Below the pieces are notes generated by a model. It was not told the DNA's origin and made no database searches. It was given only the letters and a program-made list of their open reading frames with translations. Of a DNA stretch of 11,682 bases, positions 1 to 11,682 are shown piece after piece. The position numbers were made by a program, and so were the translations under genes. Numbering within the stretch: position 1 is the stretch's first letter; each line of letters starts with the position of its first letter. Source of the DNA: a virus; UHGV virus genome UHGV-0087143. One strand, 5' to 3'.

Positions 1-219
1 CTGATCCTGATCGTCTTGCCTTATTGAATATGATTGCTATTTGCATTTAAAATCGAGACCTGGTTTTTCTACTGAAATGATTATGACTTCAATGACCCTT
101 GAATGAAGTCTATTCGGTTTTCTTTAGATGTTCGCCTCACATAATCTTCAAGTGATGTTCCTTACATCTCCCTAGAGCGTTAAGATAGTTAACTGATTGA
201 GTTTTCAGGGTATGAAAGG

Positions 220-885
220 ATGAGCAACACTACCGACATCTTAAGCACGATAGCTGATATCACTATGGCTGGTACTGCTGTATGGGCTGCATTCAAAGCT
301 AATGATTGGTTTAAAACCAAGCGTCTTGAGAGTGCTGAAAACTTCTATAAAGAAGTACACAATCTCCATAAACGTTACTATTCAGCTATCCAATACGTTG
401 AGGATTCAAGAAGAATATTTGATAGTCAGTATGGGTTGCATTCGCCAATATCTGAACCTAAAGACAAGTCATTGCAATGGGGGGTTAAATCGAACTCTTA
501 CAAAATCATCGCTGAACTAGATTATCTGGCATCGTCACTACAAATGATGGATGCAATGGGTAACAAACTTAGCCCTAAATCGGCTTCACTGGTTAATGAT
601 ATGATGGAAGCACATGGACGATTCTGTAATGATGTGATGAACTTCAATGACTCAGTTTGGAAGGTTATAAGGGCAGGTATAACTGAAGAGAACATCCCAC
701 ATACGCGAGGCTATGTGAACGGCGATTACATGACTATCCTTACCAGTATGGATGAACCTGTAAGAATATCTTTTAGGTTAAAAGAAATCAGTTTTAAAGA
801 TTTTTACCTGCATGAAACTACTATGCAGTCAGTAATAACGAGGCTGAAATCGCTTATCGCCAGAACAGGTAAAAACAGGACATAA
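220..885 (+). CDS. Hypothetical protein, 221 aa, with N-terminal hydrophobic segment (ILSTIADITMAGTAVWAAF)
   Basis: Long ORF from ATG 220; weak SD-like AGGG 9 nt upstream; no domain recognised by eye. The 302-520 track ORF is nested in another frame and treated as spurious. Confidence 0.6.
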   Translation: MSNTTDILSTIADITMAGTAVWAAFKANDWFKTKRLESAENFYKEVHNLHKRYYSAIQYVEDSRRIFDSQYGLHSPISEPKDKSLQWGVKSNSYKIIAELDYLASSLQMMDAMGNKLSPKSASLVNDMMEAHGRFCNDVMNFNDSVWKVIRAGITEENIPHTRGYVNGDYMTILTSMDEPVRISFRLKEISFKDFYLHETTMQSVITRLKSLIARTGKNRT

Positions 886-897
886 ACAGGTTAGTAC

Positions 898-1015
898 CTA
901 TGCAATTTAAAGGCATTTTCCCAAGTATCTATGCAATCCTACACAGATTCTATGCAGTATCGATATAGTCTCTTTTTAGCGTAACCTATTGAAATATATA
1001 GAGAATCTATGAAGT
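898..1015. repeat. Cluster of four CTATG(C/A)A(A/G)T motifs (898-906, 929-937, 950-958, 1007-1015) plus a diverged ~22-bp direct repeat (965-986, 1011-1032)
   Basis: Read directly: cCTATGCAAT, tCTATGCAAT, tCTATGCAGT, tCTATGAAGT, all same strand; atagtctctttttagcgtaacc vs gaagtctcttttcagggtaaac. Confidence 0.5.
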
Positions 1016-1496
1016 CTCTTTTCAGGGTAAACTGTATCGTGTTAGTCGTCCCTCTCCAGACACTACATACAGTGCTATATACAGGGATATATAACGATAT
1101 ATAGTTGTTTGACCACTACCAATATTCCCTCAAAGTGACTATCAAGCTGCTTAACAGTTTCCCATGTGAAAGTTAGGAGGTGATGGTTATAGTTCCTTCG
1201 TAGTTCCTCTTAAAAAATCACTTGCAGACACCTTAATCTCTATACAGATTTCATGTAGAACACGATTAGTACGTAGAAGAGTCATTATGTTAAAAACACA
1301 CTGTGTTTATATCAGTACTGATTTATAAGGGTTTTGTGTATTGGGTGATAAGAGGCTATACAGCACCTTGAGAGCATGTCTTCTAAGTCATTGACATATA
1401 AGGTCACAGAAGTTTGTGTCTGTTACAGAGAAAACTGGACAGGACTTCACAGAACTATAAAATGTTACAGCTATTGATAGGTGAAATCTTCTTGAT

Positions 1497-1553
1497 AGAT
1501 GCTATGAAGTGTGATGAAGGCTTCTTGAGGTGGAGTTAACAGATGCTATGAAG
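1497..1553. repeat. Two perfect copies of 13-mer AGATGCTATGAAG, 44 bp apart (1497-1509, 1541-1553)
   Basis: Exact 13-bp direct repeat; shares the CTATGAAG core with the 898-1015 cluster. Confidence 0.6.
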
Positions 1554-2028
1554 AAAGTCAATAGTTGGTTATAGATATTTTAACTGCTTTTGCAAAGGGG
1601 GGTGCTATATCGTGAATCTGGGGTACTTAACAGCCATCAATCATGAGGTAGATTAGGGGTTGGTACAAGCCCAACTAACCGAATCAACTGTGTAGATATT
1701 TTTTAAGATTATCGGTGAAGGGGGAATGCAGAGGGGGTACTATGATTTTTATAAAAATTTTCAGAAGCCAAATAACCATTGTACAGATTTTATACAATCC
1801 TACCAAGCCTCATAGTTGATTCGATTAGGTGATTCAGTAATGAATTACTTCATGAAGCTAATCTCATAGAAAGCTCTGTAGCGAGTTTTAACCCCATTTT
1901 TAGGGGTAGTCTATAGGGATGTACCACCCACCTTAAAATAAAGGGGTAAAATCGCTTAGAATGCGTTACAGAGCGTCTGAGAAGCTATATTCACAGATTT
2001 TACTAAAGTCTCAGACTTCTAAGTAGTC

Positions 2029-2338
2029 TTTTTAACAGGAGGGGTTCCCCTATGGTCACATATCCCCTCTCTCGTTTAGTGGCCCTTGATAGCACCCGAT
2101 TAATAACCTAGAGAGTATGCCTGTAAAACTTCTGTATCAGGTCAACTATAAGAGGTCTGGATATTACCTTGTAAGATTCCTGGTAGTGATTATGCAGAGG
2201 GCTTGATAAGAGTGTTTAACGGGAGGAAGAGATATCTTTTTAACAGGAGGGTTCTTTCTCATGTATCACCCTCTCTTCCCGCTAAGTAAGCTACACAGAC
2301 CTAGAGAACATGCCTTCACAGCATCTATATCAGGTCAG
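2029..2338. repeat. Two diverged ~100-115-bp modules (about 2029-2145 and 2237-2338), each beginning TTTTTAACAGGAGGG
   Basis: Shared blocks in the same order: TTTTTAACAGGAGGG, CCCTCTCT(C)..TTAG, CCTAGAGA(G/A)(T/C)ATGCCT, TCT(G/A)TATCAGGTCA. Related CTCT(C)TCCCG(C/T)T(A/T)AG boxes recur at about 2727-2740 and 2910-2923. Confidence 0.6.
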
Positions 2339-2425
2339 ATTTAGAGGGTTTTGATAGAGTCTGTAAAGGTACTTGACAGGTAACTATGAAGTTGCTAGGA
2401 AGAGCTGTTTAACGGGAGGAAGAGA
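2213..2425. repeat. Perfect 20-bp direct repeat TGTTTAACGGGAGGAAGAGA (2213-2232 and 2406-2425)
   Basis: Exact match read in sequence; a related GTTTAACGGGGG lies at 3239-3250. Confidence 0.8.
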
Positions 2426-2847
2426 ACCATGAAACCGAAGGTAGGTTCTGTCTTAACAGTGAAGTCTTAAGAAATGTCTTGAGAGTTACCTAAACAAGCC
2501 TCTTAAGTAAAAGACAACACTCCAGAAAGAGTGTCTGTTTAACAAACTTCTCAAAAGCTCTTAAAAAGTCTGTTAAGAGAGGGCTATGTGAACATATCAT
2601 ACCATTTTGTCAATGCTTTTGTCTTTGACCTAAATCAATAAAATGTATCGTTTGATATGGTTTTAAGCAAGACGGCTAAAAAAATCTTTTTAGAGGGGCG
2701 CTTCGCTTGGGGTCACTATGTTCTTTCTCTCCCGTTAAGAGGGAAGTTACAGGGACATTTCAAAGCCCTGATAAGGTAAGCCCGATGATAACAGAAACAG
2801 AGGGCAAAACCACTTATCAACACTGTGAACGAATAACGTAAAGGGCT

Positions 2848-2884
2848 GGTTAAGAAGGTCGGTTAAGAAGGTCGGTTAAGAAGG
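2848..2884. repeat. Tandem array, about 2.8 copies of 13-bp unit GGTTAAGAAGGTC
   Basis: Copies at 2848-2860 and 2861-2873, partial copy 2874-2884; related TTAAGA(A/G)GG boxes at about 2464, 2570, 2735 and 2932. Confidence 0.8.
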
Positions 2885-2950
2885 GAGCTTCCCTTTCTTG
2901 GGTGTCGCTCTTCTCCCGCTTAGTGGATAGCTAAGAAGGCTTGAAGTTAT

Positions 2951-3126
2951 CTGTGAAGGTACTGGACAGTCTTATATATTGGGTGATTACAACTCGTTGA
3001 AAAATAAGTATTTTTAGAAATCACTGTTAAGGTTACAGAGTCAACTGTGAAGAGACTTGTCAGTTCTCTATATTGGGTGATTACAACTTATTGAAAAGTA
3101 AGAACTTTTAGAAATTACTGTCAGAG
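2951..3126. repeat. Two copies of a ~82-bp direct repeat (2951-3032 and 3045-3126), period 94 bp
   Basis: Identical 20-mer core TATATTGGGTGATTACAACT at 2975-2994 and 3069-3088 with ~85% identical flanks; partial third copy TATTGGGTGAT at 1339-1349; CTGTRAAGGTACTTGACAG-like heads also at 2361-2379. Confidence 0.8.
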
Positions 3127-3240
3127 AGGTGAATACTTGATAGATACAGCTTTCCGGTTCTGTCAAGCTATTTTTTAATAGATAGCACAAAATGCTAAAG
3201 ATACCCCTATACCATCTCGTACAGGGGGGGTTGAAGGAGT

Positions 3241-3429
3241 TTAACGGGGGTCTGTGTGGTTATCTGTTCTGGTCCTGTCCTTGAGGTCAAACGACCATTC
3301 ACGACCAAACAATCTGAACACGATAAACACTCTGACGATGAAATAGCGAAGTAGTAAGCCTGCAATCAGCCCAACACCTCCACCAGCCCATACATCAGGT
3401 GACCCCAGCTCAGGAGGGAGATTTACCAT
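3241..3429 (-). CDS. Small predicted membrane protein, 62 aa (one hydrophobic helix GGGVGLIAGLLLRYFIVRVFIVF, charged C-terminus)
   Basis: Track ORF on minus strand, divergent from the 3633 gene; weak SD GAAGG upstream; candidate promoter upstream. Could still be a chance ORF. Confidence 0.3.
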   Translation of the reverse strand: MVNLPPELGSPDVWAGGGVGLIAGLLLRYFIVRVFIVFRLFGREWSFDLKDRTRTDNHTDPR

Positions 3430-3514: not shown

Positions 3515-3544
3515 ATTATACCATAAATGTTAATAAATTGTTAA
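3515..3544 (-). promoter_or_regulatory. Candidate sigma70-type promoter (minus strand): TTAACA, 18-nt spacer, extended -10 TGGTATAAT
   Basis: Minus-strand -10 TATAAT is the complement of 3515-3520, TG of the extended -10 at 3522-3523, -35 TTAACA is the complement of 3539-3544. Confidence 0.4.
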
Positions 3545-3551
3545 AAAATAC

Positions 3552-3580
3552 TTGACATTAGTCTTTGAAACTGCTAGTAT
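3552..3580 (+). promoter_or_regulatory. Candidate sigma70-type promoter (plus strand): TTGACA, 17-nt spacer, TAGTAT
   Basis: TTGACA at 3552-3557 and TAGTAT at 3575-3580 with exact 17-bp spacing, ~50 nt upstream of the 3633 start codon. Confidence 0.5.
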
Positions 3581-3632
3581 TGTATATATAGTTAACAGGA
3601 AATTAACAAACACTAAGAGGGTCAGAATATGA

Positions 3633-4187
3633 ATGCAGGATTCAGAATTTAGAGCGATGCTTCAGGCATCAAGAGAACGCAACAAGCACAACTCCTACGC
3701 TTACACAGACACCCCCACCAGCTACGAAGTACCAGCCTTTTCCAAAACCGAACGTAAAAACATTGAAGCGGTCATTCGTAGCATTACGCCACGAGACAGA
3801 TTTATGCCAGTACGCAAAGAAAAAGAGAATACTTTAAAAACTTTCTTGATGAGCTTTGATTCTTACGAGCAACTACCATCAAAAATTGAAGATGTAATTA
3901 TCGGTACTTGTCGCAGTCTTGGAAGAGATAATTATCACCGGAAGGTTTTTTATTTACTGCGAAGTCTTGATGAGATTAGTTCAAGCACAGTGACGAGCCA
4001 TCTTCAAAGACAAGCAACCAGACTTAGCTACGAATTACCAAGTGATAAATATTGCGCTAACTTAGCCACTATTTGCATGAAAGTTATTGAGACAATTAAT
4101 CATCATGCGGAAGTTGGAAATATCAGCCTTACAACCAGTGAACCAGACTTTGAATTTGACGTATACGCACAAGCAGAGGAATTTTAA
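3633..4187 (+). CDS. Hypothetical protein, 184 aa, first gene of a rightward operon
   Basis: ORF with SD AAGAGG (3615-3620) upstream of ATG 3633; no domain recognised. The antisense track ORF 4062-4442 is treated as spurious. Confidence 0.65.
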   Translation: MQDSEFRAMLQASRERNKHNSYAYTDTPTSYEVPAFSKTERKNIEAVIRSITPRDRFMPVRKEKENTLKTFLMSFDSYEQLPSKIEDVIIGTCRSLGRDNYHRKVFYLLRSLDEISSSTVTSHLQRQATRLSYELPSDKYCANLATICMKVIETINHHAEVGNISLTTSEPDFEFDVYAQAEEF

Positions 4188-4188
4188 A

Positions 4189-4476
4189 ATGGAAAATAAA
4201 CACACACTAACCAGAGTTACAAAGACAGCCTTTGAAGAACTTAACCGAATCAAAAACATTACAGGTCTGCCACACTCAGCAGTGATGAAGCTTGCAATTA
4301 ACCGTGATATTAACGAACAAGATTTGCTTAATAGTCGCTTAGAGGCTGCAAGACACCATATCAGGATTAAGCAAGATGACCTTGATAGTCTGAAATCTTT
4401 AAATGCTTTTGGACTGGATTTAGCAAGGTTGCTAAGCATCAAAATTCACAAGTTAAAGTTAGAGATGGAGGTTTAA
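4189..4476 (+). CDS. Small putative DNA-binding protein, 95 aa, ribbon-helix-helix-like N-terminus plus C-terminal coiled coil
   Basis: Start chosen at ATG 4189 (GAGGA SD 8 nt upstream, directly after the upstream stop) instead of the overlapping in-frame track start 4087; N-terminal TRVTKTAFEELNRIKNITGLPHSAVMKLAI resembles a strand-helix-helix fold. Motif-level only. Confidence 0.5.
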   Translation: MENKHTLTRVTKTAFEELNRIKNITGLPHSAVMKLAINRDINEQDLLNSRLEAARHHIRIKQDDLDSLKSLNAFGLDLARLLSIKIHKLKLEMEV

Positions 4477-4862
4477 TGTATGACTTTTATAAACATCGTG
4501 ACCATTTGGTAAGATTTGACGGTAAAGTCTGGAAAGACGTAACACAAACCAATAAACCCAAGTTTACCCACCAGCAATTAGCCTCAAGATTTGATATCTG
4601 GACTGAAGCACAAAAAGATAATGGTGATTTCGAGTTTATCAGGGGTTTTGATTATGCTTACGAAGACGACCTTAAAGACGCCATTAAATTAATTGAGAAT
4701 TTCAACTCTATTAAAAATGGTGACAAGCACAAAGCCAATGGCAACAGATACGATAAAGATTTAATCATTGATGCAATCACCAAAGGACAATCACAAAGTT
4801 ATATTTCTGAGAAATACGGTTTATCACGCAGTCAATACTACAAGATTAAAGCGTCTGTGTAA
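4476..4862 (+). CDS. Putative helix-turn-helix DNA-binding protein, 128 aa
   Basis: Start ATG overlaps upstream stop (TAATG, translational coupling); C-terminal IDAITKGQSQSYISEKYGLSRSQYYKIK looks like a resolvase/sigma-region-4-type HTH. Confidence 0.6.
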   Translation: MYDFYKHRDHLVRFDGKVWKDVTQTNKPKFTHQQLASRFDIWTEAQKDNGDFEFIRGFDYAYEDDLKDAIKLIENFNSIKNGDKHKANGNRYDKDLIIDAITKGQSQSYISEKYGLSRSQYYKIKASV

Positions 4863-5000
4863 GCCTGTGAGAATGAGTGAGACTCAAAGATGAGCTACCC
4901 TATTACTAAGGTGTCTCACTCCCTCTGTAACCCGCATGGTTACTGGCCTCAGAATGGCTATTTTGGCAGATTTAAGATGTGTTTTTAGAGGATTTTAAAA

Positions 5001-5324: not shown

Positions 5325-5389
5325 TGGAATTGGTGATTATCTGTTTTGTATTGATTGGTATGATTGCAGGTGCATCTATTAAAGTATAA
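5324..5389 (+). CDS. Possible 21-aa hydrophobic peptide (MELVIICFVLIGMIAGASIKV)
   Basis: ATG overlaps stop of the 107-aa gene (TAATG); strong SD GAAGGTGG 7 nt upstream; entirely hydrophobic. Below the track length cut-off; speculative. Confidence 0.25.
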   Translation: MELVIICFVLIGMIAGASIKV

Positions 5390-5454
5390 ATGTTACCAAT
5401 CTGTTAAAAAGCTGTTGACAAATAACCTTAAGCATGACATAATTTTAATTATGG

Positions 5455-5481
5455 GAGAGTAATTCTCTCTTATATTTTTTT
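5455..5481 (+). terminator. Candidate rho-independent terminator for the 3633-5389 operon
   Basis: Stem GAGAG/CTCTC (5455-5459 / 5465-5469), loop TAATT, followed by TATATTTTTTT. Confidence 0.4.
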
Positions 5482-5659
5482 CAATAATCCGATGGATGGA
5501 TGGATATTCTGAGTTGGTGAGGTATGTTCTATACCGAACATTCTGAAAGGTGCAATGCTTTTCGCTACATGGCCTCTTATATAACCTGAGAGGTCATCTC
5601 GAAAAGTACTCTTGTTCATTCGTTTGAATCCTTCAGAAGTTTTAATTTCTTCACCTTAT

Positions 5660-5702
5660 GAATAGCCCTTTATAAGAAATTATCTAGGGCTATTCAGTTT
5701 TT
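5660..5702 (+). terminator. Candidate stem-loop/terminator: 10-bp stem GAATAGCCCT / AGGGCTATTC, 16-nt loop, then AGTTTTT
   Basis: Perfect 10-bp inverted repeat at 5660-5669 and 5686-5695; T-run only on the plus strand. Confidence 0.35.
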
Positions 5703-5776
5703 AAAAAGCATACTTGGCAAACCGCCTTTTAAGCCTCTTCTAAGTTCGAGGATGTCAGGTGTGCTTTTTAAAAACT
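5696..5776. promoter_or_regulatory. Perfect 15-bp inverted repeat pair AGTTTTTAAAAAGCA (5696-5710) / TGCTTTTTAAAAACT (5762-5776), 51 bp apart; operator-like
   Basis: Exact reverse complements; each contains the palindrome TTTTTAAAAA; ends 36 bp upstream of the 5812 start codon. Confidence 0.4.
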
Positions 5777-5811
5777 GAAACATAAATTATCTTAGAAGAG
5801 GAAAGGTATTA

Positions 5812-6893: not shown

Positions 6894-8978
6894 ATGAGCA
6901 AATTTACAGTTGATAGTTTTATTGTTGAGCTGGGCTTCAGTGAAAACGTTATTAAGGGATTGCAAAGAGTTGAAAAGGCAGCTTTGCAGTCAGCACAAAG
7001 AATTGAACGTAATTTGAATAGAGCGTTTAAGGTCGATACCAAGCAACTTGACAGCAATTTAACGGCTTCTTTAAAGTCAATGGAAGGGAAAATTAATAAG
7101 ACCTTTGACAAGATTGAGCAGCGTCTTAAAAACACTAGAGCGTTTAAGATTAAAACGGAAATTGAGGATACTTTAAAGCCACTTAGACAGCCAAGACAGC
7201 CACGAATTAGCGGCAACAGAGCAATCACAGCAGCTTATTCAGCGAATATGAGCAAGTTAAAGGGCTTTGACCCTATTTTGCAGAAATACATCAAATCTCA
7301 GTTTTACGGGCTATCTGCTAAAGCTGGGTCAATGGATAATTCAAAATTCAATGAGAAGTTAGCTCAGCTAAATGCTTCAGTCAGAGAAGCAATCACTAAA
7401 GCCAGAGGTCATACATCCACCAGCAAAAACAATCACAGTGAAAATGCTTCAAATGGTTTAGATGTATTAGCTACAAGTGCAATCAAAGCAGGTACAGCCA
7501 TTTATAGTTTTCAGACAGCCTTAGAAGCTTATAGGAAGGTTATGGAAGTTGGTCTGAAAAAAGAAGCATCACAACGAGCGGCACAATTCGTTTTAGGTGA
7601 TGAAGGTGCTAAACGAGCTACAGAATTTGTTAAGAATCTTGCTGATAGTAGTGGTGTAGACCAGATTGAAACATTAAGCAGTTTTGCTAAGTTTTCCGCT
7701 GGTGCTGGTGATATGAATGCAGACCAGAAAGAATCCTTATTTTCTAATGTGATTGGTACATCCCGACTAATGGGTTTAAGCACTGATGAGATTAACGGGA
7801 TTCTAAAAGCTTTCGAGCAGATGGCGAGCAAGGGCAAGATTCAAGCTGAAGAATTACGCGGTCAGTTAGGGGACAGAATGGCAGGTGCTTTTCAGTTATT
7901 TGCCAGAAGTCTTGGGATGACTACAGAAGAATTAGACAAGGCCATGAAGGACGGTAAGGTTCTTTCTAAAGATGTTCTTCCTAAAGTATCCGCTGAAATG
8001 GGAAGGATGATTGATAAAGCTGGTGGATGGGAAAAGATTATTAACTCTACTCAGACGCAGTTAGGCCGCCTTTCTAATTCATGGAATAATAATCTGGCCT
8101 TAATGTTCGACGGTTCACAGGAAGGTTTAACAGACTTTACAAGGTCACTGACTAATTTACTTAATTCACTAGGTGGTCAATCTAAAAATCTTGGTGAACA
8201 TTTTGGCGACTTGATGAAAAGCATGTCAAACGGTGTTGATGATTTAACCACGATTAGCTACCGAGCACAGGGATTCTTTGACAGAGTGACCCTTGCTTAC
8301 AGAGAATTAAATGACACTCAAAAAGCTGTAGCTGATGGTATCGCAAATGGCCTGTTAAGTGCATTAAAGGGGCTTGCTGGTATAGTCGCTGTAAGGTCTG
8401 GGATTGGTGCTGTAGGTGGTATCTGGAACTTAATTAGGGCTATTTCCACGCTTGGAAATGTAGCAAATACAGCAGCAGGAAGAATCAATTCACGTTCTGC
8501 TGGTAGTGTTGAAGGTGGTAAAGGAAAATTATCTGTAGCTGATGCAATTACCAAAGTAATGATTGTCGGTATGGCAACTGATGTGATTAACTCCATTGTT
8601 AAACCACTCTATGAACGCCAGATGAGTAAGTCAGATAATCCAATTGATAAAGTTGTAAGGTCAAAGGTGGAACCCACAGACCAAGCATTGACTGGTGACA
8701 TGAACTCTTTAGCTGCTGTTTTATGGGCTATGGTTCAGGGCAAATCAAAAGATGTTCCACAGTTTTCACCGGAAGCATTAAATAATCTGAAAGGTCGAGT
8801 GGAAACATTCACACAAGATTTAAAGGTTATCAAGCCGTCAGTAAATATTCAGCCTCAGACAATCAATATCACAACTCAGACGGTACTTGATGGAAAGGTT
8901 ATTGATGAAAGAACCACATCGCATATTAATCGTATGCAGGAAGATACCTTGATTAGCTCAGCTTACCCAGAGGAATAA
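6894..8978 (+). CDS. Phage tail tape measure protein-like, 694 aa
   Basis: Internal segment ...GLSTDEINGILKAFEQMASKGKIQAEELRGQLGDRMAGAFQLFARSLGMTTEELDKAMKDGKV... matches the conserved tape-measure core (ELRGQLGERLPGA-type motif); helical N-terminus and Gly/Ala-rich hydrophobic segment (GIANGLLSALKGLAGIVAVRSGIGAVGGIW) typical of tape measure proteins; SD GAGGTG (6878-6883) before ATG 6894. The four antisense track ORFs inside it are treated as spurious. Confidence 0.8.
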   Translation: MSKFTVDSFIVELGFSENVIKGLQRVEKAALQSAQRIERNLNRAFKVDTKQLDSNLTASLKSMEGKINKTFDKIEQRLKNTRAFKIKTEIEDTLKPLRQPRQPRISGNRAITAAYSANMSKLKGFDPILQKYIKSQFYGLSAKAGSMDNSKFNEKLAQLNASVREAITKARGHTSTSKNNHSENASNGLDVLATSAIKAGTAIYSFQTALEAYRKVMEVGLKKEASQRAAQFVLGDEGAKRATEFVKNLADSSGVDQIETLSSFAKFSAGAGDMNADQKESLFSNVIGTSRLMGLSTDEINGILKAFEQMASKGKIQAEELRGQLGDRMAGAFQLFARSLGMTTEELDKAMKDGKVLSKDVLPKVSAEMGRMIDKAGGWEKIINSTQTQLGRLSNSWNNNLALMFDGSQEGLTDFTRSLTNLLNSLGGQSKNLGEHFGDLMKSMSNGVDDLTTISYRAQGFFDRVTLAYRELNDTQKAVADGIANGLLSALKGLAGIVAVRSGIGAVGGIWNLIRAISTLGNVANTAAGRINSRSAGSVEGGKGKLSVADAITKVMIVGMATDVINSIVKPLYERQMSKSDNPIDKVVRSKVEPTDQALTGDMNSLAAVLWAMVQGKSKDVPQFSPEALNNLKGRVETFTQDLKVIKPSVNIQPQTINITTQTVLDGKVIDERTTSHINRMQEDTLISSAYPEE

Positions 8979-9212
8979 ACAATGTTAGAGCTACTAATAT
9001 TTATTGCCACACATGGCAACCTATTAATCTTTATCTAGTATGACGACTCAACTATGAATAGTCGAATGCTACGTGAAATCTCCTGAACAGATATACCCAC
9101 TGAAAAATAGAATTTACGTAGCTCACGCTTAACAGAGAAAATACTTATATATCAAAGGCTTGGTTAAAAATGACTGAAATACACTAAGTCTTTGAAATCA
9201 AAGGAGAATTTA

Positions 9213-9986
9213 ATGATTTACTCTAATCAGATTCGTTACAGTGGCAAAGATGGCATCTATTTCCACTTAAGAGATAATGTAGATGCCTTCTTAACTTTAT
9301 CAGCAACTGAGAACATGGAATTTGATAGCCCTATGCAGGTGACTACACAGAACATGCAATCAGGGCAAACCGTCACAGATAATGTGCAAAGAGCACCCAG
9401 AACAATCACTATTAGTGGTGTCGTTGTAGTTGGCTATGAAGGAAGCTTATTATTAACTCGTCAGGGTCAATTAGTAGAAAACTTCATCGACACCCTTGAA
9501 AGCTGGCGTGACCAGAAGCAGATTATTTCGGTCATCTGTAAAGATGGTATCAAGATTGATGACTCCATTATTACAAGTTTTAAAGCCTCTAAAGATGTTG
9601 GTATTTCAAATGGTCTAAGAATCCAGCTAACTTTTCAGGAAATTAACTTTAAAGCTGTTGTGGGGCAGACTGATATCTCGGCTGCAACTGGAAAAGCCGC
9701 GACTACGAATGATGGTGGTGTGACCAGTAAAAAGAATGCGGGTAACGTGACCACTGAACGCAATAACGCACCTATGCTGATGTGTCAGGAACTGTACAGT
9801 TACTCAGCATCTGAGCTATCTGATGAAGCGCTAAGGGTCCGTAGCAATTGCTCTAAAAATGTCACGGTGAAAGATGGTGTAAGCACCTTCACAGCCTCAG
9901 CTAATGAGCAGGCTTCAAAAGTGCTTAAGTCGGGTAATGCTTTACGGAAGTTTTCTGTGAATCCGAATAAGAAGGGCACTTATTGA
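9213..9986 (+). CDS. Hypothetical protein, 257 aa, downstream of the tape measure gene (possibly tail-associated by position only)
   Basis: Start chosen at ATG 9213 (SD AAGGAG 6 nt upstream) instead of the in-frame track start at 9192, which is a TTG codon; no domain recognised. Confidence 0.65.
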
Positions 9987-10018: not shown

Positions 10019-11539
10019 TTACAGTTGATAAGCGTCAATATCCAGTAGCTCTTTATCAGCAATTTCAAAGATTGGTGACCCATCATTTAGCGGTAACGGG
10101 TTTGTAGGTATGGTGATTTCAGTGTCGTTCTGTAGCGTTACAGTTACCGAATCCTTACCCAATGTAAGCCCTTTTAGATGTTTGGACAAAATCAACTGAC
10201 ACTCGACACGACCCGCTTTAGTTGTCAGGTCAATATCTTTAAGCTGGGGTAGTTCCTTATCAGTGAGTGAAGCCTTACGCCTCATGTTATCAATAGTAGT
10301 CTGTAGTTCTGTGCGCTTCTGGTTAAGTCCCTTCACCTGTGCTTTCAACTCTGTAATGTCATCCATTTCAAGAAGTAGGGCGGTAGCTTTCTTGATTCTG
10401 GCTGTGACAATTTCAACCTCATGCTGTAGAGATGCAATCTTCCCCTCTGCTTCTCCATCATTCCCCACGTCAATCATCCCCAGAAAATTATCAATCATCC
10501 ATCGGTCAAACGGTTTACGCTTCAACGGTGGAACATCACAGCGACCGTCTAAGTGGTTATTGCACCTGTAGACCCCTGCATACTTATTCTTGGTTCCGGT
10601 AGGATGGACACTAGCCCCACACTGACACCGGAATAATCCCTTGAAGATGTTAATCGTTAATGGGTTATCACTTGCAGGTGTGCGGCCTTTACGATTCTTG
10701 TCGAGAATCTCTTGAGCTTTATTGAACGTTGCAGCATCTATAGCGGCTTCGTAGTAGTTCGGTATAGCGGGGCGGTCATTACGCTGTGATGCTGGTAACG
10801 TGCCTATTGTTGTCTCCGACCTTAAGATGGTGCGTACAGAATGGACGCTAAACCCATTAGCATCTTTACGGCGACTAAACGACTTTATACCGTTGCTTTG
10901 AAGGTGACGGGCGATGTTATGCAGACTTTCACCACTTAGCAGCAGCTTGAAAATCAGTCTTACAGTCTCAGCGTGTTCATTGAGTTTGAGAGTATCGGGG
11001 TCAATCCATCCGGGAACCATCTTTGTTAAACGTTGTTTACCAGCAAGGGCAAGTTTTGCACGTTGTTTCCACTTCTCGCTAACACGGAAAGACTTCTGCT
11101 TACTCTCCTGATGCGCTAGGTAGCTTTTAACCCGCTGAATGATTGAGATTCCTAAATCATCGGATAGAGCATCCCTTGTGTAGATTAGCCCATCCTGTAG
11201 AGTGTGAATCTCGATACCATGAGCAATAATGCGATTCATCAAGGCTTCTGTTTCAAGATGCTCTAATCGGCCTATACGGTCGATACTCTCAACTAGCAGA
11301 ATTGTACCTCCTGGAAACTCCCCAGCCTCAATACGGGCTAACATGTCACCAAACTGACCAGTAAGGTGTTTACCTTTGTAACCGGATAGACCCTCATCAC
11401 TGAAAGACGCTACTACTTGAGCATCGCTATTCTTCTTCAACCATTGTTTGAACAGGTCGTTTTGTCGTCTGGTTGAATCAGCACCTTCAGCACCTTGTGT
11501 GGCTGATGAGAATCTCAAGTATGTTATTACGGTTCTCAC
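10019..11539 (-). CDS. int: Large serine recombinase (serine integrase), 506 aa
   Basis: N-terminal resolvase-type catalytic domain with the serine nucleophile motif (YLRFSSATQ) and downstream LLVESIDRIGR; central recombinase region; Cys-rich zinc-ribbon-like segment (CQCGAS...YRCNNHLDGRCD); C-terminal coiled-coil-like region. GTG start with SD GGGAG 9 nt upstream. Antisense track ORFs 10263-10571 and 10914-11111 treated as spurious. Confidence 0.9.
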   Translation of the reverse strand: MRTVITYLRFSSATQGAEGADSTRRQNDLFKQWLKKNSDAQVVASFSDEGLSGYKGKHLTGQFGDMLARIEAGEFPGGTILLVESIDRIGRLEHLETEALMNRIIAHGIEIHTLQDGLIYTRDALSDDLGISIIQRVKSYLAHQESKQKSFRVSEKWKQRAKLALAGKQRLTKMVPGWIDPDTLKLNEHAETVRLIFKLLLSGESLHNIARHLQSNGIKSFSRRKDANGFSVHSVRTILRSETTIGTLPASQRNDRPAIPNYYEAAIDAATFNKAQEILDKNRKGRTPASDNPLTINIFKGLFRCQCGASVHPTGTKNKYAGVYRCNNHLDGRCDVPPLKRKPFDRWMIDNFLGMIDVGNDGEAEGKIASLQHEVEIVTARIKKATALLLEMDDITELKAQVKGLNQKRTELQTTIDNMRRKASLTDKELPQLKDIDLTTKAGRVECQLILSKHLKGLTLGKDSVTVTLQNDTEITIPTNPLPLNDGSPIFEIADKELLDIDAYQL

Positions 11540-11611
11540 GGTGATAAACTCCCATGCAATTGATTATCATTTAAAGATGAACTTATAAACGTTATGGCTA
11601 ATGCTACAATG

Positions 11612-11640
11612 CCGAATAGCTACAATACAATGACCCTTGA
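11612..11640. other. Candidate recombinase attachment-site junction (right end), partner of 90-117
   Basis: CCGAATAG, 8-nt spacer, CAATGACCCTTGA, ~75 bp upstream of the recombinase start; sequence beyond 11640 turns GC-rich (CCTCGCCGCTTCCCCTGGCCGACG). Confidence 0.3.
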
Positions 11641-11682
11641 TTTACCTCGCCGCTTCCCCTGGCCGACGTTACTTTCGGTCTG

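What the first reader, a model, noticed from the sequence alone, without database searches (positions are those of the whole stretch)
898..1554. Six same-strand CTATG(C/A)A(A/G) boxes in two clusters
Six copies of an 8-mer with two degenerate positions lie on one strand within ~660 bp (898, 929, 950, 1007, 1502, 1546); a rough by-eye estimate for this much sequence is well under one copy. The last two sit inside perfect 13-mers 44 bp apart. Likely binding sites for a sequence-specific protein.
Basis: seen in the sequence. Interest (0 to 1): 0.45.

Follow-up and report, generated by a model that had tools for sequence, protein, structure and literature searches.

The report
Phage-terminus-like repeat words in island
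The six boxes are real, but they are the best-matching copies of a looser family of short repeated DNA words in a 2.3-kb gene-free stretch of a mobile island in E. coli, and part of that stretch is copied from the chromosome-end region of Felix O1/Moogle-type phages, so the words probably help the island exploit such a phage.

Summary
Observation confirmed. All six CTATGMAR boxes are at the stated coordinates on the + strand (6 observed, 0.07 expected, 0/1000 shuffles). The two 13-mers 44 bp apart are perfect.

The strict 8-mer overstates the signal. Across 61-81 related islands only boxes 1, 3 and 6 usually fit it. Box 4 is CTGTGAAG in 90%. Box 5 is mostly CTTTGAAG or CTGTGAAG. Relatives carry 3.5 strict boxes on average; this window has the maximum, 7.

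The boxes belong to a looser word family (CTNNNNAG: 49 observed, 14 expected) that fills a 2.3-kb gene-free region. That region lies in an ~11.5-kb island integrated into the start of tonB. The island carries a serine integrase and tape-measure and baseplate genes related to Felixounavirus.

Ounavirinae phages have a similar 1.6-kb gene-free region around their 581-bp direct terminal repeat, packed with the same kind of words at ~11-bp phasing. Cluster 2 (1487-1720) is clearly homologous to the right end of that repeat (nhmmer E=3e-17 against phage Moogle). Cluster 1 has no phage counterpart.

Best reading (about 0.4): these are cis-acting protein-binding words in helper-terminus-like DNA, used for packaging or end recognition. 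Protein binding is inferred, not shown.

The parts
898..905 (+). Box 1, CTATGCAA (followed by T)
   Evidence: In 81 relatives it is CTAT[G/T]CAATTTAA, flanked by variable columns.
929..936 (+). Box 2, CTATGCAA. It starts a run of 8-mers 10-11 bp apart: 929 CTATGCAA, 939 CTACACAG, 950 CTATGCAG, 961 CGATATAG, 972 CTTTTTAG.
   Evidence: About half the relatives have CTAAGCAG here.
950..957 (+). Box 3, CTATGCAG
   Evidence: CTAT[G/A]CAG in relatives. It lies in the pattern used to retrieve loci, so its conservation is partly by construction.
1007..1014 (+). Box 4, CTATGAAG. The family consensus is CTGTGAAG.
   Evidence: A at the third position in only 10% of 81 sequences.
1502..1509 (+). Box 5, CTATGAAG, second half of the 18-mer TTGATAGATGCTATGAAG
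   Evidence: mostly CTTTGAAG or CTGTGAAG in relatives. It aligns, within 1 nt, with the phage word CTGTTAAG.
1546..1553 (+). Box 6, CTATGAAG, second half of the 18-mer TTAACAGATGCTATGAAG
   Evidence: It aligns with the phage words TGTAAGAA / ATAGAGAG just inside the right end of the terminal repeat.
869..1194 (+). Conserved left module, holding cluster 1. It was found in every related island retrieved, and lies about 90 bp from the left junction in relatives that lack ORF1. It includes the conserved AT-rich block 982-1006.
   Evidence: No significant phage counterpart.
886..3200 (+). Gene-free, repeat-rich region (NCR) between convergent genes. CTNNNNAG words: 49 observed, 13.9 expected.
   Evidence: A match is present in 527 of 5426 E. 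coli genomes.
1487..1720 (+). Segment B: homologue of the right end of the Ounavirinae direct terminal repeat and the boundary beyond it. It contains cluster 2.
   Evidence: nhmmer E=3.3e-17 and 1.2e-8 against Moogle, 2.8e-6 against wV8, 1.9e-5 against D4. Alignment A4. Present in 25/61 relatives.
1654..1677 (+). 24-nt hairpin element TAGGGGTTGGTACAAGCCCAACTA, inserted within segment B
   Evidence: Absent from L004 and from Moogle at this position. Copies occur elsewhere, some inverted, in relatives. A 22-nt exact match lies in the Sf16 gene-free region.
1747..1798 (+). Segment C: the TTTTATAAAAATTTT element, homologous to the right flank of the phage terminal repeat
   Evidence: Score 37 against 20.3±2.6 for shuffles versus Moogle. 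nhmmer E 0.002-0.02 against wV8/D4. Present in 48/61 relatives.
1806..1868 (+). Segment A: homologue of the left edge of the Moogle gene-free region. With 1672-1692 it forms an inverted repeat (TTGATTCGAT / ACCGAATCAA).
   Evidence: Score 63 against 20.4±2.4 for shuffles. Inverted repeat I3. Present in only 3/61 relatives.
1949..1991 (+). 43-nt element shared with the long terminal repeat of T5-like Salmonella phages
   Evidence: two copies in the phage repeat.
2475..2606 (+). Segment similar to the interior of the phage terminal repeat (D4 positions 233-355). The similarity is clearer in the family consensus than in this window.
   Evidence: nhmmer E=4.9e-6 (D4) and 3.1e-5 (wV8).
92..102 (+). 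Left attachment core ATGACCCTTGA, inside the first codons of tonB
11630..11640 (+). Right attachment core. The complete tonB coding sequence begins here and runs beyond the window end.
6894..8978 (+). Tape measure protein gene, 30% amino-acid identity to wV8 gp73
9192..9986 (+). Dit-like baseplate protein gene. Positions 9237-9746 are 95% identical in nucleotides to Felixounavirus gp74.
10019..11539 (-). Large serine recombinase (integrase)

Best explanation
The boxes are not a free-standing 8-mer operator. They are this window's best-matching members of a family of short degenerate words on one strand. The narrow consensus is CT[A/G]T[G/A][A/C]AG; the broad frame is CTNNNNAG, often 10-11 bp apart. 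These words fill the 2.3-kb gene-free region of an ~11.5-kb integrative, satellite-like island.

Shown:
- The same kind of region, gene-free between convergent genes, packed with CTNNNNAG words (TGTTAAG, CTGTAAAG, CTATAAAG) phased at about 11 bp, surrounds the 581-bp direct terminal repeat of Ounavirinae phages (Felix O1, wV8, Moogle).
- The island also carries tape-measure and baseplate genes related to those phages.
- Island segment 1487-1868, which holds cluster 2, is a patchwork of true homologues of the right end of that terminal repeat and its flanks.

Inferred:
- In the phage the words are read by a phage DNA-binding protein that works at the chromosome ends. A terminase or end-processing complex is the likeliest candidate; a replication protein is possible.
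- The island keeps its own versions so that, when such a phage infects, its DNA is recognised by that machinery and is packaged or amplified.
- Cluster 1 lies in the island-specific left module, which was found in every relative retrieved. It would be an array of the same type with diverged word sequence, read either by the same class of protein or by an island-encoded one.
For: - Enrichment and strand bias of the boxes.
- An unbiased 8-mer neighbourhood analysis puts CTGTGAAG first in the island (15 copies within 1 mismatch; random maximum 12). CTGTTAAG is among the top seeds in both island and phage.
- CTNNNNAG counts: island region 49 against 13.9±3.5; wV8 region 63 against 11.7; Moogle region 59 against 11.7. 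Coding controls give only 16 against 8.1 and 23 against 11.2.
- Phasing at 10.8-11 bp: 0/2000 random placements reach the observed value in both phage regions, 24/2000 in the island left module, 87/2000 in the whole island region.
- Of all 1.6-kb windows of the 88-kb wV8 genome, the one around the terminal repeat shares the most 7-, 8- and 9-mers with the island region (z about 6). It shares 222 8-mers, against 136 for a composition-matched random copy.
- The terminal repeat was mapped from phage D4 (581 bp, identical at both record ends, equal to wV8 about 14351-14953). Published repeat sizes are 581 and 608 bp (PMC8303462, PMC4837284).
- Profile homology of island 1520-1720 to that repeat end: E=3.3e-17 and 1.2e-8 (Moogle), 2.8e-6 (wV8), 1.9e-5 (D4), same strand. 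Six-sequence alignment.
- Two further homologous flank segments, with scores 63 against 20±2.4 and 37 against 20±2.6.
- An independent 43-nt match to the terminal repeat of T5-like phages, a second phage group with terminal repeats.
- Gene order matches the phage: gene-free region, then tape measure, then baseplate, all on the same strand.
- No RNA, promoter or tRNA signal in the finding's region.
Against: - No protein that binds the words is known, in phage or island. The function of the Ounavirinae gene-free region has not been studied.
- Cluster 1 has no detectable phage homologue. Its inclusion rests on shared word grammar only.
- Segment B, with cluster 2, is absent from 36 of 61 relatives, so it cannot be essential to the island family.
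- The island words differ systematically from the phage words (T.TGAAG against TGTTAAG), so the same protein may not read both.
- No excised, circular or linear free form of the island was seen in about 76 metagenomic and viral contigs.
- An 11.5-kb element is about 13% of an 88-kb capsid load, and no capsid-resizing or terminase gene was recognised.
- Box columns are not significantly more conserved than the rest of the module (p about 0.075).
Confidence: 0.4

Rival explanations
1. Island replication origin. The boxes are iterons bound by an island-encoded initiator (for example the unknown first operon protein at 3633-4187), and the AT-rich block 982-1006 is the unwinding element.
For: Cluster 1 lies in the module found in every relative retrieved. 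The words are phased at 31/21 bp and about 11 bp. A conserved AT-rich block sits between boxes 3 and 4. Known satellites (SaPI, PLE) have iteron origins; this is from my own knowledge.
Confidence: 0.15
2. Decoy or interference. The phage-terminus-like DNA titrates or misdirects a protein of the infecting phage (terminase or end-processing factor) and so protects the host population, without the island being packaged.
For: The homology evidence is the same as for the best explanation. The island also carries diverged copies of two phage tail-assembly genes that could poison assembly. No free island form was seen. No packaging or capsid genes were found.
Against: A single chromosomal copy is a weak titrator. 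No known defence family matched. The integrase and three different insertion sites point to an actively mobile element.
Confidence: 0.12
3. No present function. The words are inherited sequence texture from phage non-coding DNA captured by recombination, plus local duplications. The strict 8-mer count is a coincidence of this window.
For: This window has the family maximum of strict boxes (7 against a mean of 3.5). Pairs of boxes lie in longer local duplications. Segments B, A and the T5-like element are patchy across relatives. Box conservation is not exceptional.
Against: The 2.3-kb region stays free of genes and 80-95% identical across hundreds of genomes. The left module is present in every relative retrieved, with many invariant columns. 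Strand bias and phasing persist. The phage counterpart is itself strongly patterned.
Confidence: 0.12
4. Strict form of the first reader's reading: CTATGMAR is the recognition sequence of one transcriptional regulator (host, island or phage) that controls nearby promoters.
For: Six copies against 0.07 expected. All seven + strand copies in the gene-free region are followed by T or A. An island protein with a weak HTH hit exists at 4476-4862.
Against: The defining positions vary across relatives. No promoter-like site overlaps the boxes beyond chance: 18 found, 18.3 expected. The flanking genes converge on the region. The only strong promoters are at 3515-3592 and 5415-5443. The HTH protein is replaced by other genes in relatives.
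Confidence: 0.08
5. RNA-level or micro-ORF function: the boxes act in a transcript, for example through the AUG inside each CTATG.
For: All copies are on one strand, and the + strand is purine-rich. RNA-structure signals exist elsewhere in the region (1886-2085 z=-4.3; 2386-2685).
Against: RNAalifold z is between -1.4 and +0.4 on the + strand across 886-1585. There is no Rfam hit. The ATG is lost in 22% (box 1), about 48% (box 2) and 90% (box 4) of relatives. No Shine-Dalgarno sequence is seen by eye upstream of the boxes (sequence).
Confidence: 0.03

Closest known systems
Gene-free region around the direct terminal repeat of Ounavirinae phages (Felix O1, wV8, vB_EcoM_D4, Moogle, Sf16)
   Same: Both are gene-free regions between convergent genes, with 3.5-5-fold excess of CTNNNNAG words and about 11-bp phasing. 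Island 1487-1868 is directly homologous to the right end of the repeat and its flanks.
   Different: The island region is longer (2.3 against 1.6 kb), less dense in words (2.1 against 3.6-3.8 per 100 bp) and rearranged: the order is repeat end, right flank, left edge. Its words have shifted from TGTTAAG to T.TGAAG. Cluster 1 has no counterpart. The function of the phage region is itself unknown.
Satellites that carry a copy of the helper phage's packaging site (P4 with the P2 cos site; cos-type E. coli PICIs and SaPIbov5). From my own knowledge.
   Same: A small integrative element carries DNA resembling the helper's chromosome-end or packaging region, which would let the helper's terminase act on it.
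   Different: Those are cos sites of temperate helpers and nearly identical to the helper site. Here the presumed helper is a virulent myovirus with terminal repeats, the similarity is 60-85% and patchy, and packaging has not been shown.
Short repeat arrays flanking the T7 terminal repeat (CCTAAAG-type heptamers; Dunn and Studier 1983). From my own knowledge.
   Same: Many short degenerate words on one strand lie next to a short exact terminal repeat.
   Different: The word sequence and phage family differ. The role of the T7 arrays is also unresolved, so the analogy does not supply a mechanism.
Iteron replication origins of plasmids, SaPIs and PLEs. From my own knowledge.
   Same: Direct repeats on one strand, helical phasing, and a neighbouring AT-rich block.
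   Different: Iterons are longer (17-22 bp), more uniform, and lie beside their Rep gene. No Rep-like gene was found here.
TerS-bound pac sites with phased boxes (SPP1 pacL/pacR). From my own knowledge.
   Same: Several short boxes on one face of the DNA, read by a small-terminase oligomer.
   Different: That system uses headful packaging in a different phage group. No TerS was identified for Ounavirinae or for the island in this work.

Membership tests
Helper-phage terminus or packaging site carried by a satellite | Sequence homology to the helper's chromosome-end region | tested here: met
   Met for cluster 2 and its surroundings (1487-1868): nhmmer E=3.3e-17 (Moogle), 2.8e-6 (wV8), 1.9e-5 (D4 repeat positions 512-611). 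Not met for cluster 1 (860-1200): no hit at E below 0.01; pairwise score 28 against 22.7±2.2.
Helper-phage terminus or packaging site carried by a satellite | The host element is a satellite: small, integrative, lacking a full virion gene set, linked to a specific helper | tested here: inconclusive
   The element is ~11.5 kb, with a large serine recombinase, 11-bp attachment cores in tonB, and only two virion genes (tape measure 30% amino-acid identity; baseplate 76% amino-acid, 95% nucleotide identity over 510 bp to Felixounavirus). Helper dependence is untested.
Helper-phage terminus or packaging site carried by a satellite | Island DNA is cut or packaged at the site by the helper terminase | not testable with these tools
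   Only integrated copies with host flanks were seen in the contigs examined.
Iteron-type replication origin | Three or more near-identical direct repeats of about 17-22 bp | tested here: not met
   The longest repeated units are 14-18 nt with 2-4 copies each. The shared core is a degenerate 8-mer.
Iteron-type replication origin | Repeats spaced in multiples of the helical turn, beside an AT-rich unwinding block | tested here: inconclusive
   Spacings of 31 and 21 bp fit; 57 and 44 bp do not. CTNNNNAG phasing in 870-1194 is reached by 24/2000 random placements. A conserved AT-rich block lies at 982-1006.
Iteron-type replication origin | A cognate initiator (Rep) gene in the element | tested here: not met
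   No Rep, primase or helicase family hit in Pfam, PHROGs, NCBIfam or PADLOC for any island ORF. The model of the 184-aa protein was uninformative.
Operator sites of a transcriptional regulator | Sites overlap or adjoin a promoter of a regulated gene | tested here: not met
   Promoter-like sites are at chance level (18 against 18.3). None scoring 10/12 or better lies in 886-1430. The neighbouring genes converge on the region.
Operator sites of a transcriptional regulator | The recognition sequence is conserved at its defining positions in orthologous loci | tested here: not met
   Positions 3-5 and 8 of the 8-mer vary. Box 4 is CTGTGAAG in 90%, box 2 is CTAAGCAG in about 48%, and box 5 is mostly CTTTGAAG.
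Structured non-coding RNA | Match to a known RNA family, or a conserved fold better than shuffled alignments | tested here: not met
   No Rfam hit in 886-3200 at E up to 1 and no tRNA. RNAalifold z is -1.4 to +0.4 on the + strand over 886-1585.
Known satellite families (P4-like, PICI, cfPICI, PLE) | The characteristic gene set (for example AlpA plus Pri-Rep, capsid-redirecting or capsid genes, TerS; or the P4 alpha, sid, psu, delta genes) | tested here: not met
   Only an integrase, tape measure and Dit-like baseplate protein were recognisable; seven ORFs matched no family. Five text searches found no description of the island.

The most novel reading that the evidence does not exclude
The window holds a member of an undescribed family of integrative satellites of virulent, terminal-repeat myoviruses (Ounavirinae). 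DNA matching its gene-free region is present in about 10% of complete E. coli genomes, at three or more chromosomal sites. The family would stock its gene-free region with patchwork copies of the chromosome-end DNA of the phages it exploits: Ounavirinae, and a fragment from T5-like phages. The CTNNNNAG word arrays, of which the six boxes are part, would then be the still-unknown recognition code for end formation or packaging in this phage group.
Probability: 0.3. Interest if true: 0.75.

Novelty: new variant of a known kind. Interest (0 to 1): 0.5.

Why it matters
If the reading is right, three things follow.

1. It gives a concrete, testable candidate for the cis-acting code at the chromosome ends of Felix O1-type phages. 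These phages are widely used for Salmonella and E. coli typing and biocontrol, and their packaging signals are uncharacterised.

2. It points to a common but undescribed E. coli island that appears built to interact with virulent phages. Satellites of virulent phages are few; the Vibrio cholerae PLE with phage ICP1 is the main example. The island carries phage tail genes and phage-end DNA, but no recognised capsid or terminase genes.

3. It shows a gene-free region acting as a collecting place for fragments of phage terminal DNA and for accessory genes.

If the reading is wrong, the boxes are only the repeat texture of captured phage non-coding DNA.

Tried and rejected
- Near and distant BLAST of the gene-free region against the phage collection found no Ounavirinae hit at E below 1e-3. 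The homology appeared only with family profiles and after locating the phage gene-free region.
- tRNA and Rfam scans gave nothing in the region.
- Sigma-70 promoter scan was at chance level.
- RNAalifold sliding windows showed no signal over the finding. A first attempt timed out.
- CTATGMAR itself is not clustered in wV8, in the T5-like repeat locus or in the Moogle and Sf16 loci.
- A single-sequence local alignment of the left module to the D4 junction and to Moogle was not significant.
- Pfam, PHROGs, NCBIfam and PADLOC left seven island ORFs without a family. A PDB sequence search of the 234-aa ORF gave nothing.
- A test for co-variation between that protein's hypervariable helix and box variants found none.
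- A genome-contig scan with the 184-aa protein found only E. albertii.
- A viral-contig scan for CTATGCAAT..CTATGCAR returned unrelated tandem repeats and chance hits.
- A search for circular or free island forms among the contigs found only integrated copies.
- Five literature searches for the island returned nothing relevant.
Full report
**1. The observation.** CTATGMAR occurs at 898, 929, 950, 1007, 1502 and 1546, all on the + strand. The last two boxes lie in identical 13-mers, AGATGCTATGAAG, at 1497-1509 and 1541-1553. These are part of 18-nt repeats (family D5). The whole window has 11 hits against 2.2 expected (0/200 shuffles). Region 886-1560 has 6 against 0.07 expected (0/1000 dinucleotide shuffles) and none on the minus strand. 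The description is therefore correct and the excess is real, with two reservations. The pattern was chosen after seeing the sequence. The copies are also not independent, because they sit pairwise in longer local repeats: 893-906/924-937, 951-987/997-1033 and 1492-1509/1536-1553.

**2. Where it lies.** The window is an island of about 11.5 kb inserted in the first codons of E. coli tonB. The attachment core ATGACCCTTGA is at 92-102 and 11630-11640, and yciI and kch lie upstream.

- Genes that could be assigned: a large serine recombinase (10019-11539, minus strand), a tape measure protein (6894-8978) and a Dit-like baseplate protein (9192-9986).
- The baseplate gene is 95% identical in nucleotides to Felixounavirus phages over 9237-9746. 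The tape measure protein is 30% identical in amino acids to wV8 gp73. No other island gene matches wV8.
- Seven further ORFs match no family in Pfam, PHROGs, NCBIfam or PADLOC.
- Between ORF1 (220-885) and a small minus-strand ORF (3241-3429) there is no ORF of 50 codons or more, no tRNA and no Rfam match. The boxes lie in this gene-free region.
- DNA similar to the region occurs in 527 of 5426 complete E. coli genomes. The islands carrying it sit at three sites: tonB, yecE and next to ymdF.
- Different accessory genes are embedded in the region in different relatives: a small recombinase, a Dam-type methylase, an AP2-type protein.
- Five literature searches found no description of the element.

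**3. Conservation of the boxes.** I collected 87 distinct copies of the region from E. coli genomes, E. albertii, IMG/VR and metagenomes.

- In 81 aligned sequences box 1 is CTAT[G 78%/T]CAA. Box 2 is CTA[T 52%/A 48%]GCA[A/G]. Box 3 is CTAT[G/A]CAG, but it lies inside the 21-nt pattern used to retrieve most of these sequences, so only its fifth base could vary. Box 4 is CTGTGAAG in 90%.
- In 27 sequences box 5 is mostly CTTTGAAG or CTGTGAAG, and box 6 is mostly CTATGAAG.
- Relatives carry on average 3.5 strict boxes on the + strand (range 1-7) and 0.5 on the minus strand. This window has the maximum, 7.
- Box columns are more conserved than their module (0.89 against 0.77), but random triples of 8-nt blocks reach that value in 7.5% of trials.
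- Cluster 1 lies in a left module (869-1194) that was found in every relative retrieved. Cluster 2 lies in a segment present in 25 of 61.

The strict 8-mer is therefore partly a coincidence of this window, and the two clusters are separate modules.

**4. The wider word family.** An unbiased 8-mer neighbourhood count over 886-3200 puts CTGTGAAG first (15 copies within one mismatch; random maximum 12). CTTGACAG, CTGTTAAG, CTATGCAG and CTATGAAG follow. The bipartite unit TTRAYAG-N3-6-CTRTRMAG occurs 4 times against 0.00 expected, with half-sites 10-11 bp apart. In cluster 1 the boxes continue as a run of 8-mers 10-11 bp apart: 929 CTATGCAA, 939 CTACACAG, 950 CTATGCAG, 961 CGATATAG, 972 CTTTTTAG. 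The frame CTNNNNAG occurs 49 times in the region against 13.9±3.5 expected. A coding control has 16 against 8.1.

**5. The phage counterpart.** wV8 has a 1.65-kb gene-free stretch (13884-15531) between convergent genes.

- Phage vB_EcoM_D4, whose record is opened at its physical ends, has identical 581-bp ends. These map to wV8 at about 14351-14953, in the middle of that stretch.
- Published sizes of Felixounavirus terminal repeats are 581 and 608 bp (PMC8303462, PMC4837284).
- The stretch is packed with CTTGTTAG, CTGTTAAG, CTGTAAAG and CTATAAAG.
- CTNNNNAG occurs 63 times in wV8 and 59 times in Moogle, against about 11.7 expected. The words are phased at 10.8-11 bp, a value reached by 0/2000 random placements.
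- In the island the phasing is weaker: 24/2000 for the left module and 87/2000 for the whole region.
- Scanning all of wV8, the window that shares the most 7-, 8- and 9-mers with the island region is the one around the terminal repeat (z about 6). It shares 222 8-mers, against 136 for a Markov-2 random copy of the island region and 148 for island coding DNA.

**6. Direct homology.**

- Profiles built from the island family match the phage terminal repeat on the same strand. Island ~1556-1660 matches D4 repeat positions 512-611 (E=1.9e-5) and wV8 14893-14983 (E=2.8e-6). Island ~2475-2606 matches D4 233-355 (E=4.9e-6).
- A database-wide distant BLAST of 1480-1810 gave, as its top hits (not significant, E about 1), the gene-free regions of the Mooglevirus phages Moogle and Sf16.
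- Against Moogle the island profiles reach E=3.3e-17 and 1.2e-8.
- The six-sequence alignment shows island 1487-1720 collinear with Moogle, Sf16, D4 and wV8. It runs through the last words of the repeat, the block GATATTTTAA..TTTGCAAAGGGG.TG and the repeat boundary.
- Box 5 falls, within one base, on the phage word CTGTTAAG. Box 6 falls on TGTAAGAA / ATAGAGAG.
- Two more island segments are homologous to Moogle. Island 1747-1798 matches the right flank (score 37 against 20.3±2.6). Island 1806-1868 matches the left edge of the gene-free region (score 63 against 20.4±2.4).
- Cluster 1 has no significant phage match.
- Separately, 1949-1991 matches a sequence present twice in the long terminal repeat of T5-like Salmonella phages.

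**7. What was excluded.**

- Promoter-like sites are at chance level, and the flanking genes converge on the region.
- RNAalifold z-scores over 886-1585 lie between -1.4 and +0.4 on the + strand.
- The ATG inside the boxes is not conserved.
- No replication initiator was found.
- The first operon protein (3633-4187) gave a medium-confidence helical model with no informative fold match. Its hypervariable helix does not co-vary with box variants.
- Only integrated island copies were seen in the contigs examined.

**8. Mechanism.**

Shown: the boxes are part of a degenerate word array, biased to one strand and roughly helix-phased. Arrays of the same type surround the terminal repeat of Ounavirinae phages. 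Cluster 2 is a diverged homologue of the right end of that repeat. The island also carries two tail genes of these phages, in the same order and orientation relative to the gene-free region as in the phage.

Inferred: the words are read by a protein acting at phage chromosome ends, most likely in packaging or end formation, and the island uses them to be recognised by that machinery (confidence about 0.4).

Rivals: an island replication origin (0.15), a decoy that interferes with the phage (0.12), inherited texture without function (0.12), a classical operator for the strict 8-mer (0.08), and an RNA or micro-ORF role (0.03).

Main weaknesses: no binding protein is known. Cluster 1 is tied to the phage only by word grammar. 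Cluster 2 is dispensable in most relatives. The island words differ systematically from the phage words. Packaging of an 11.5-kb element by an 88-kb terminal-repeat phage is unexplained.

**9. Comparison and novelty.** The closest known objects are:
- the Ounavirinae terminal-repeat region itself, whose function is unstudied;
- satellites that carry helper cos sites (P4, cos-PICIs);
- the short-repeat arrays next to the T7 terminal repeat;
- iteron origins;
- TerS-bound pac boxes.

The finding fits none as a member. It meets the homology criterion for a helper-terminus copy in cluster 2 only, and fails the iteron, operator, RNA and known-satellite criteria that could be tested. I rate it a new variant of a known kind: repeat arrays in a satellite-like island that copy helper terminal DNA. 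Interest is moderate (0.5). That interest comes mostly from the island and the phage-end link, not from the 8-mer itself.

Noticed in passing
window 1-110 and 11540-11682: The island splits tonB after its first codons. The native Fur-regulated tonB promoter now points into the island, towards ORF1. The island's right end supplies a new upstream region for tonB with a Fur-box-like sequence (TGATTATCATT, 11563-11573) and the start codon.
   Followed up: partly
window 9237-9746: 510 bp of the baseplate gene are 95% identical to many Felixounavirus genomes, while the rest of the island has no near match to any phage. This suggests recent recombination with such a phage, or strong constraint on that protein's N-terminal part.
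   Followed up: partly
window 1949-1991; L014 1838-1867 and 5001-5042: A 43-nt element (AAATCGCTTAGAATGCGTTACAGAGCGT...) is shared with the long terminal repeat of T5-like Salmonella phages, where it occurs twice. A diverged inverted copy of 1873-2018 lies near 4862-5000.
   Followed up: partly
window 1654-1677; L001 5406-5446; L003 5910-5925 and 8818-8858; L212 2501-2522: A 24-nt hairpin element (TAGGGGTTGGTACAAGCCCAACTA) appears as an insertion here. In relatives it occurs at other places and in inverted orientation, and it matches the Sf16 gene-free region exactly over 22 nt. It behaves like a small mobile or invertible site, possibly linked to the small serine recombinase genes found in the region in some relatives.
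   Followed up: partly
window 1195-1745 compared with L005, L007-L010, L003, L006: The gene-free region is a hotspot for accessory genes in relatives: a small recombinase, a DNA N-6-adenine methyltransferase and an AP2/ERF-type protein. These replace or interrupt segments of it.
   Followed up: partly
window 2020-2430 and 2848-2886: Diverged tandem units of about 190-210 bp each carry a stem-loop (TTTAACAGGAGGG...CCCTCTC). There are three tandem copies of GGTTAAGAAGGTC. RNAalifold signals lie at 1886-2085 (z=-4.3 on the + strand) and 2386-2685.
   Followed up: no
window 3633-4187: The first operon protein (184 aa) has 1088 distinct 90%-identity clusters in the protein collection, almost all from E. 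coli or Shigella. A helix around residues 105-130 is hypervariable, which suggests diversifying selection. Its function is unknown.
   Followed up: partly
window 5415-5474 and 5330-5810: A near-consensus promoter (TTGACA-17-CATAAT with TG) is followed within 10 bp by a terminator-like hairpin. Both lie in a second gene-free stretch of about 480 bp, which has a weak Rfam rhtB hit below threshold.
   Followed up: no
window 3515-3592: Back-to-back strong promoter-like sites. One faces the small minus-strand membrane-like ORF (3241-3429, with a terminator at 3204-3227). The other faces the main + strand operon.
   Followed up: no
L213 1590-1606, 2585-2602 and 3170-3190; window 1672-1692 and 1811-1831: In Moogle an inverted repeat (TTGATTCGAT / ACCGAATCAA) brackets the terminal-repeat region about 1 kb apart. 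The island keeps both arms only 118 nt apart.
   Followed up: no
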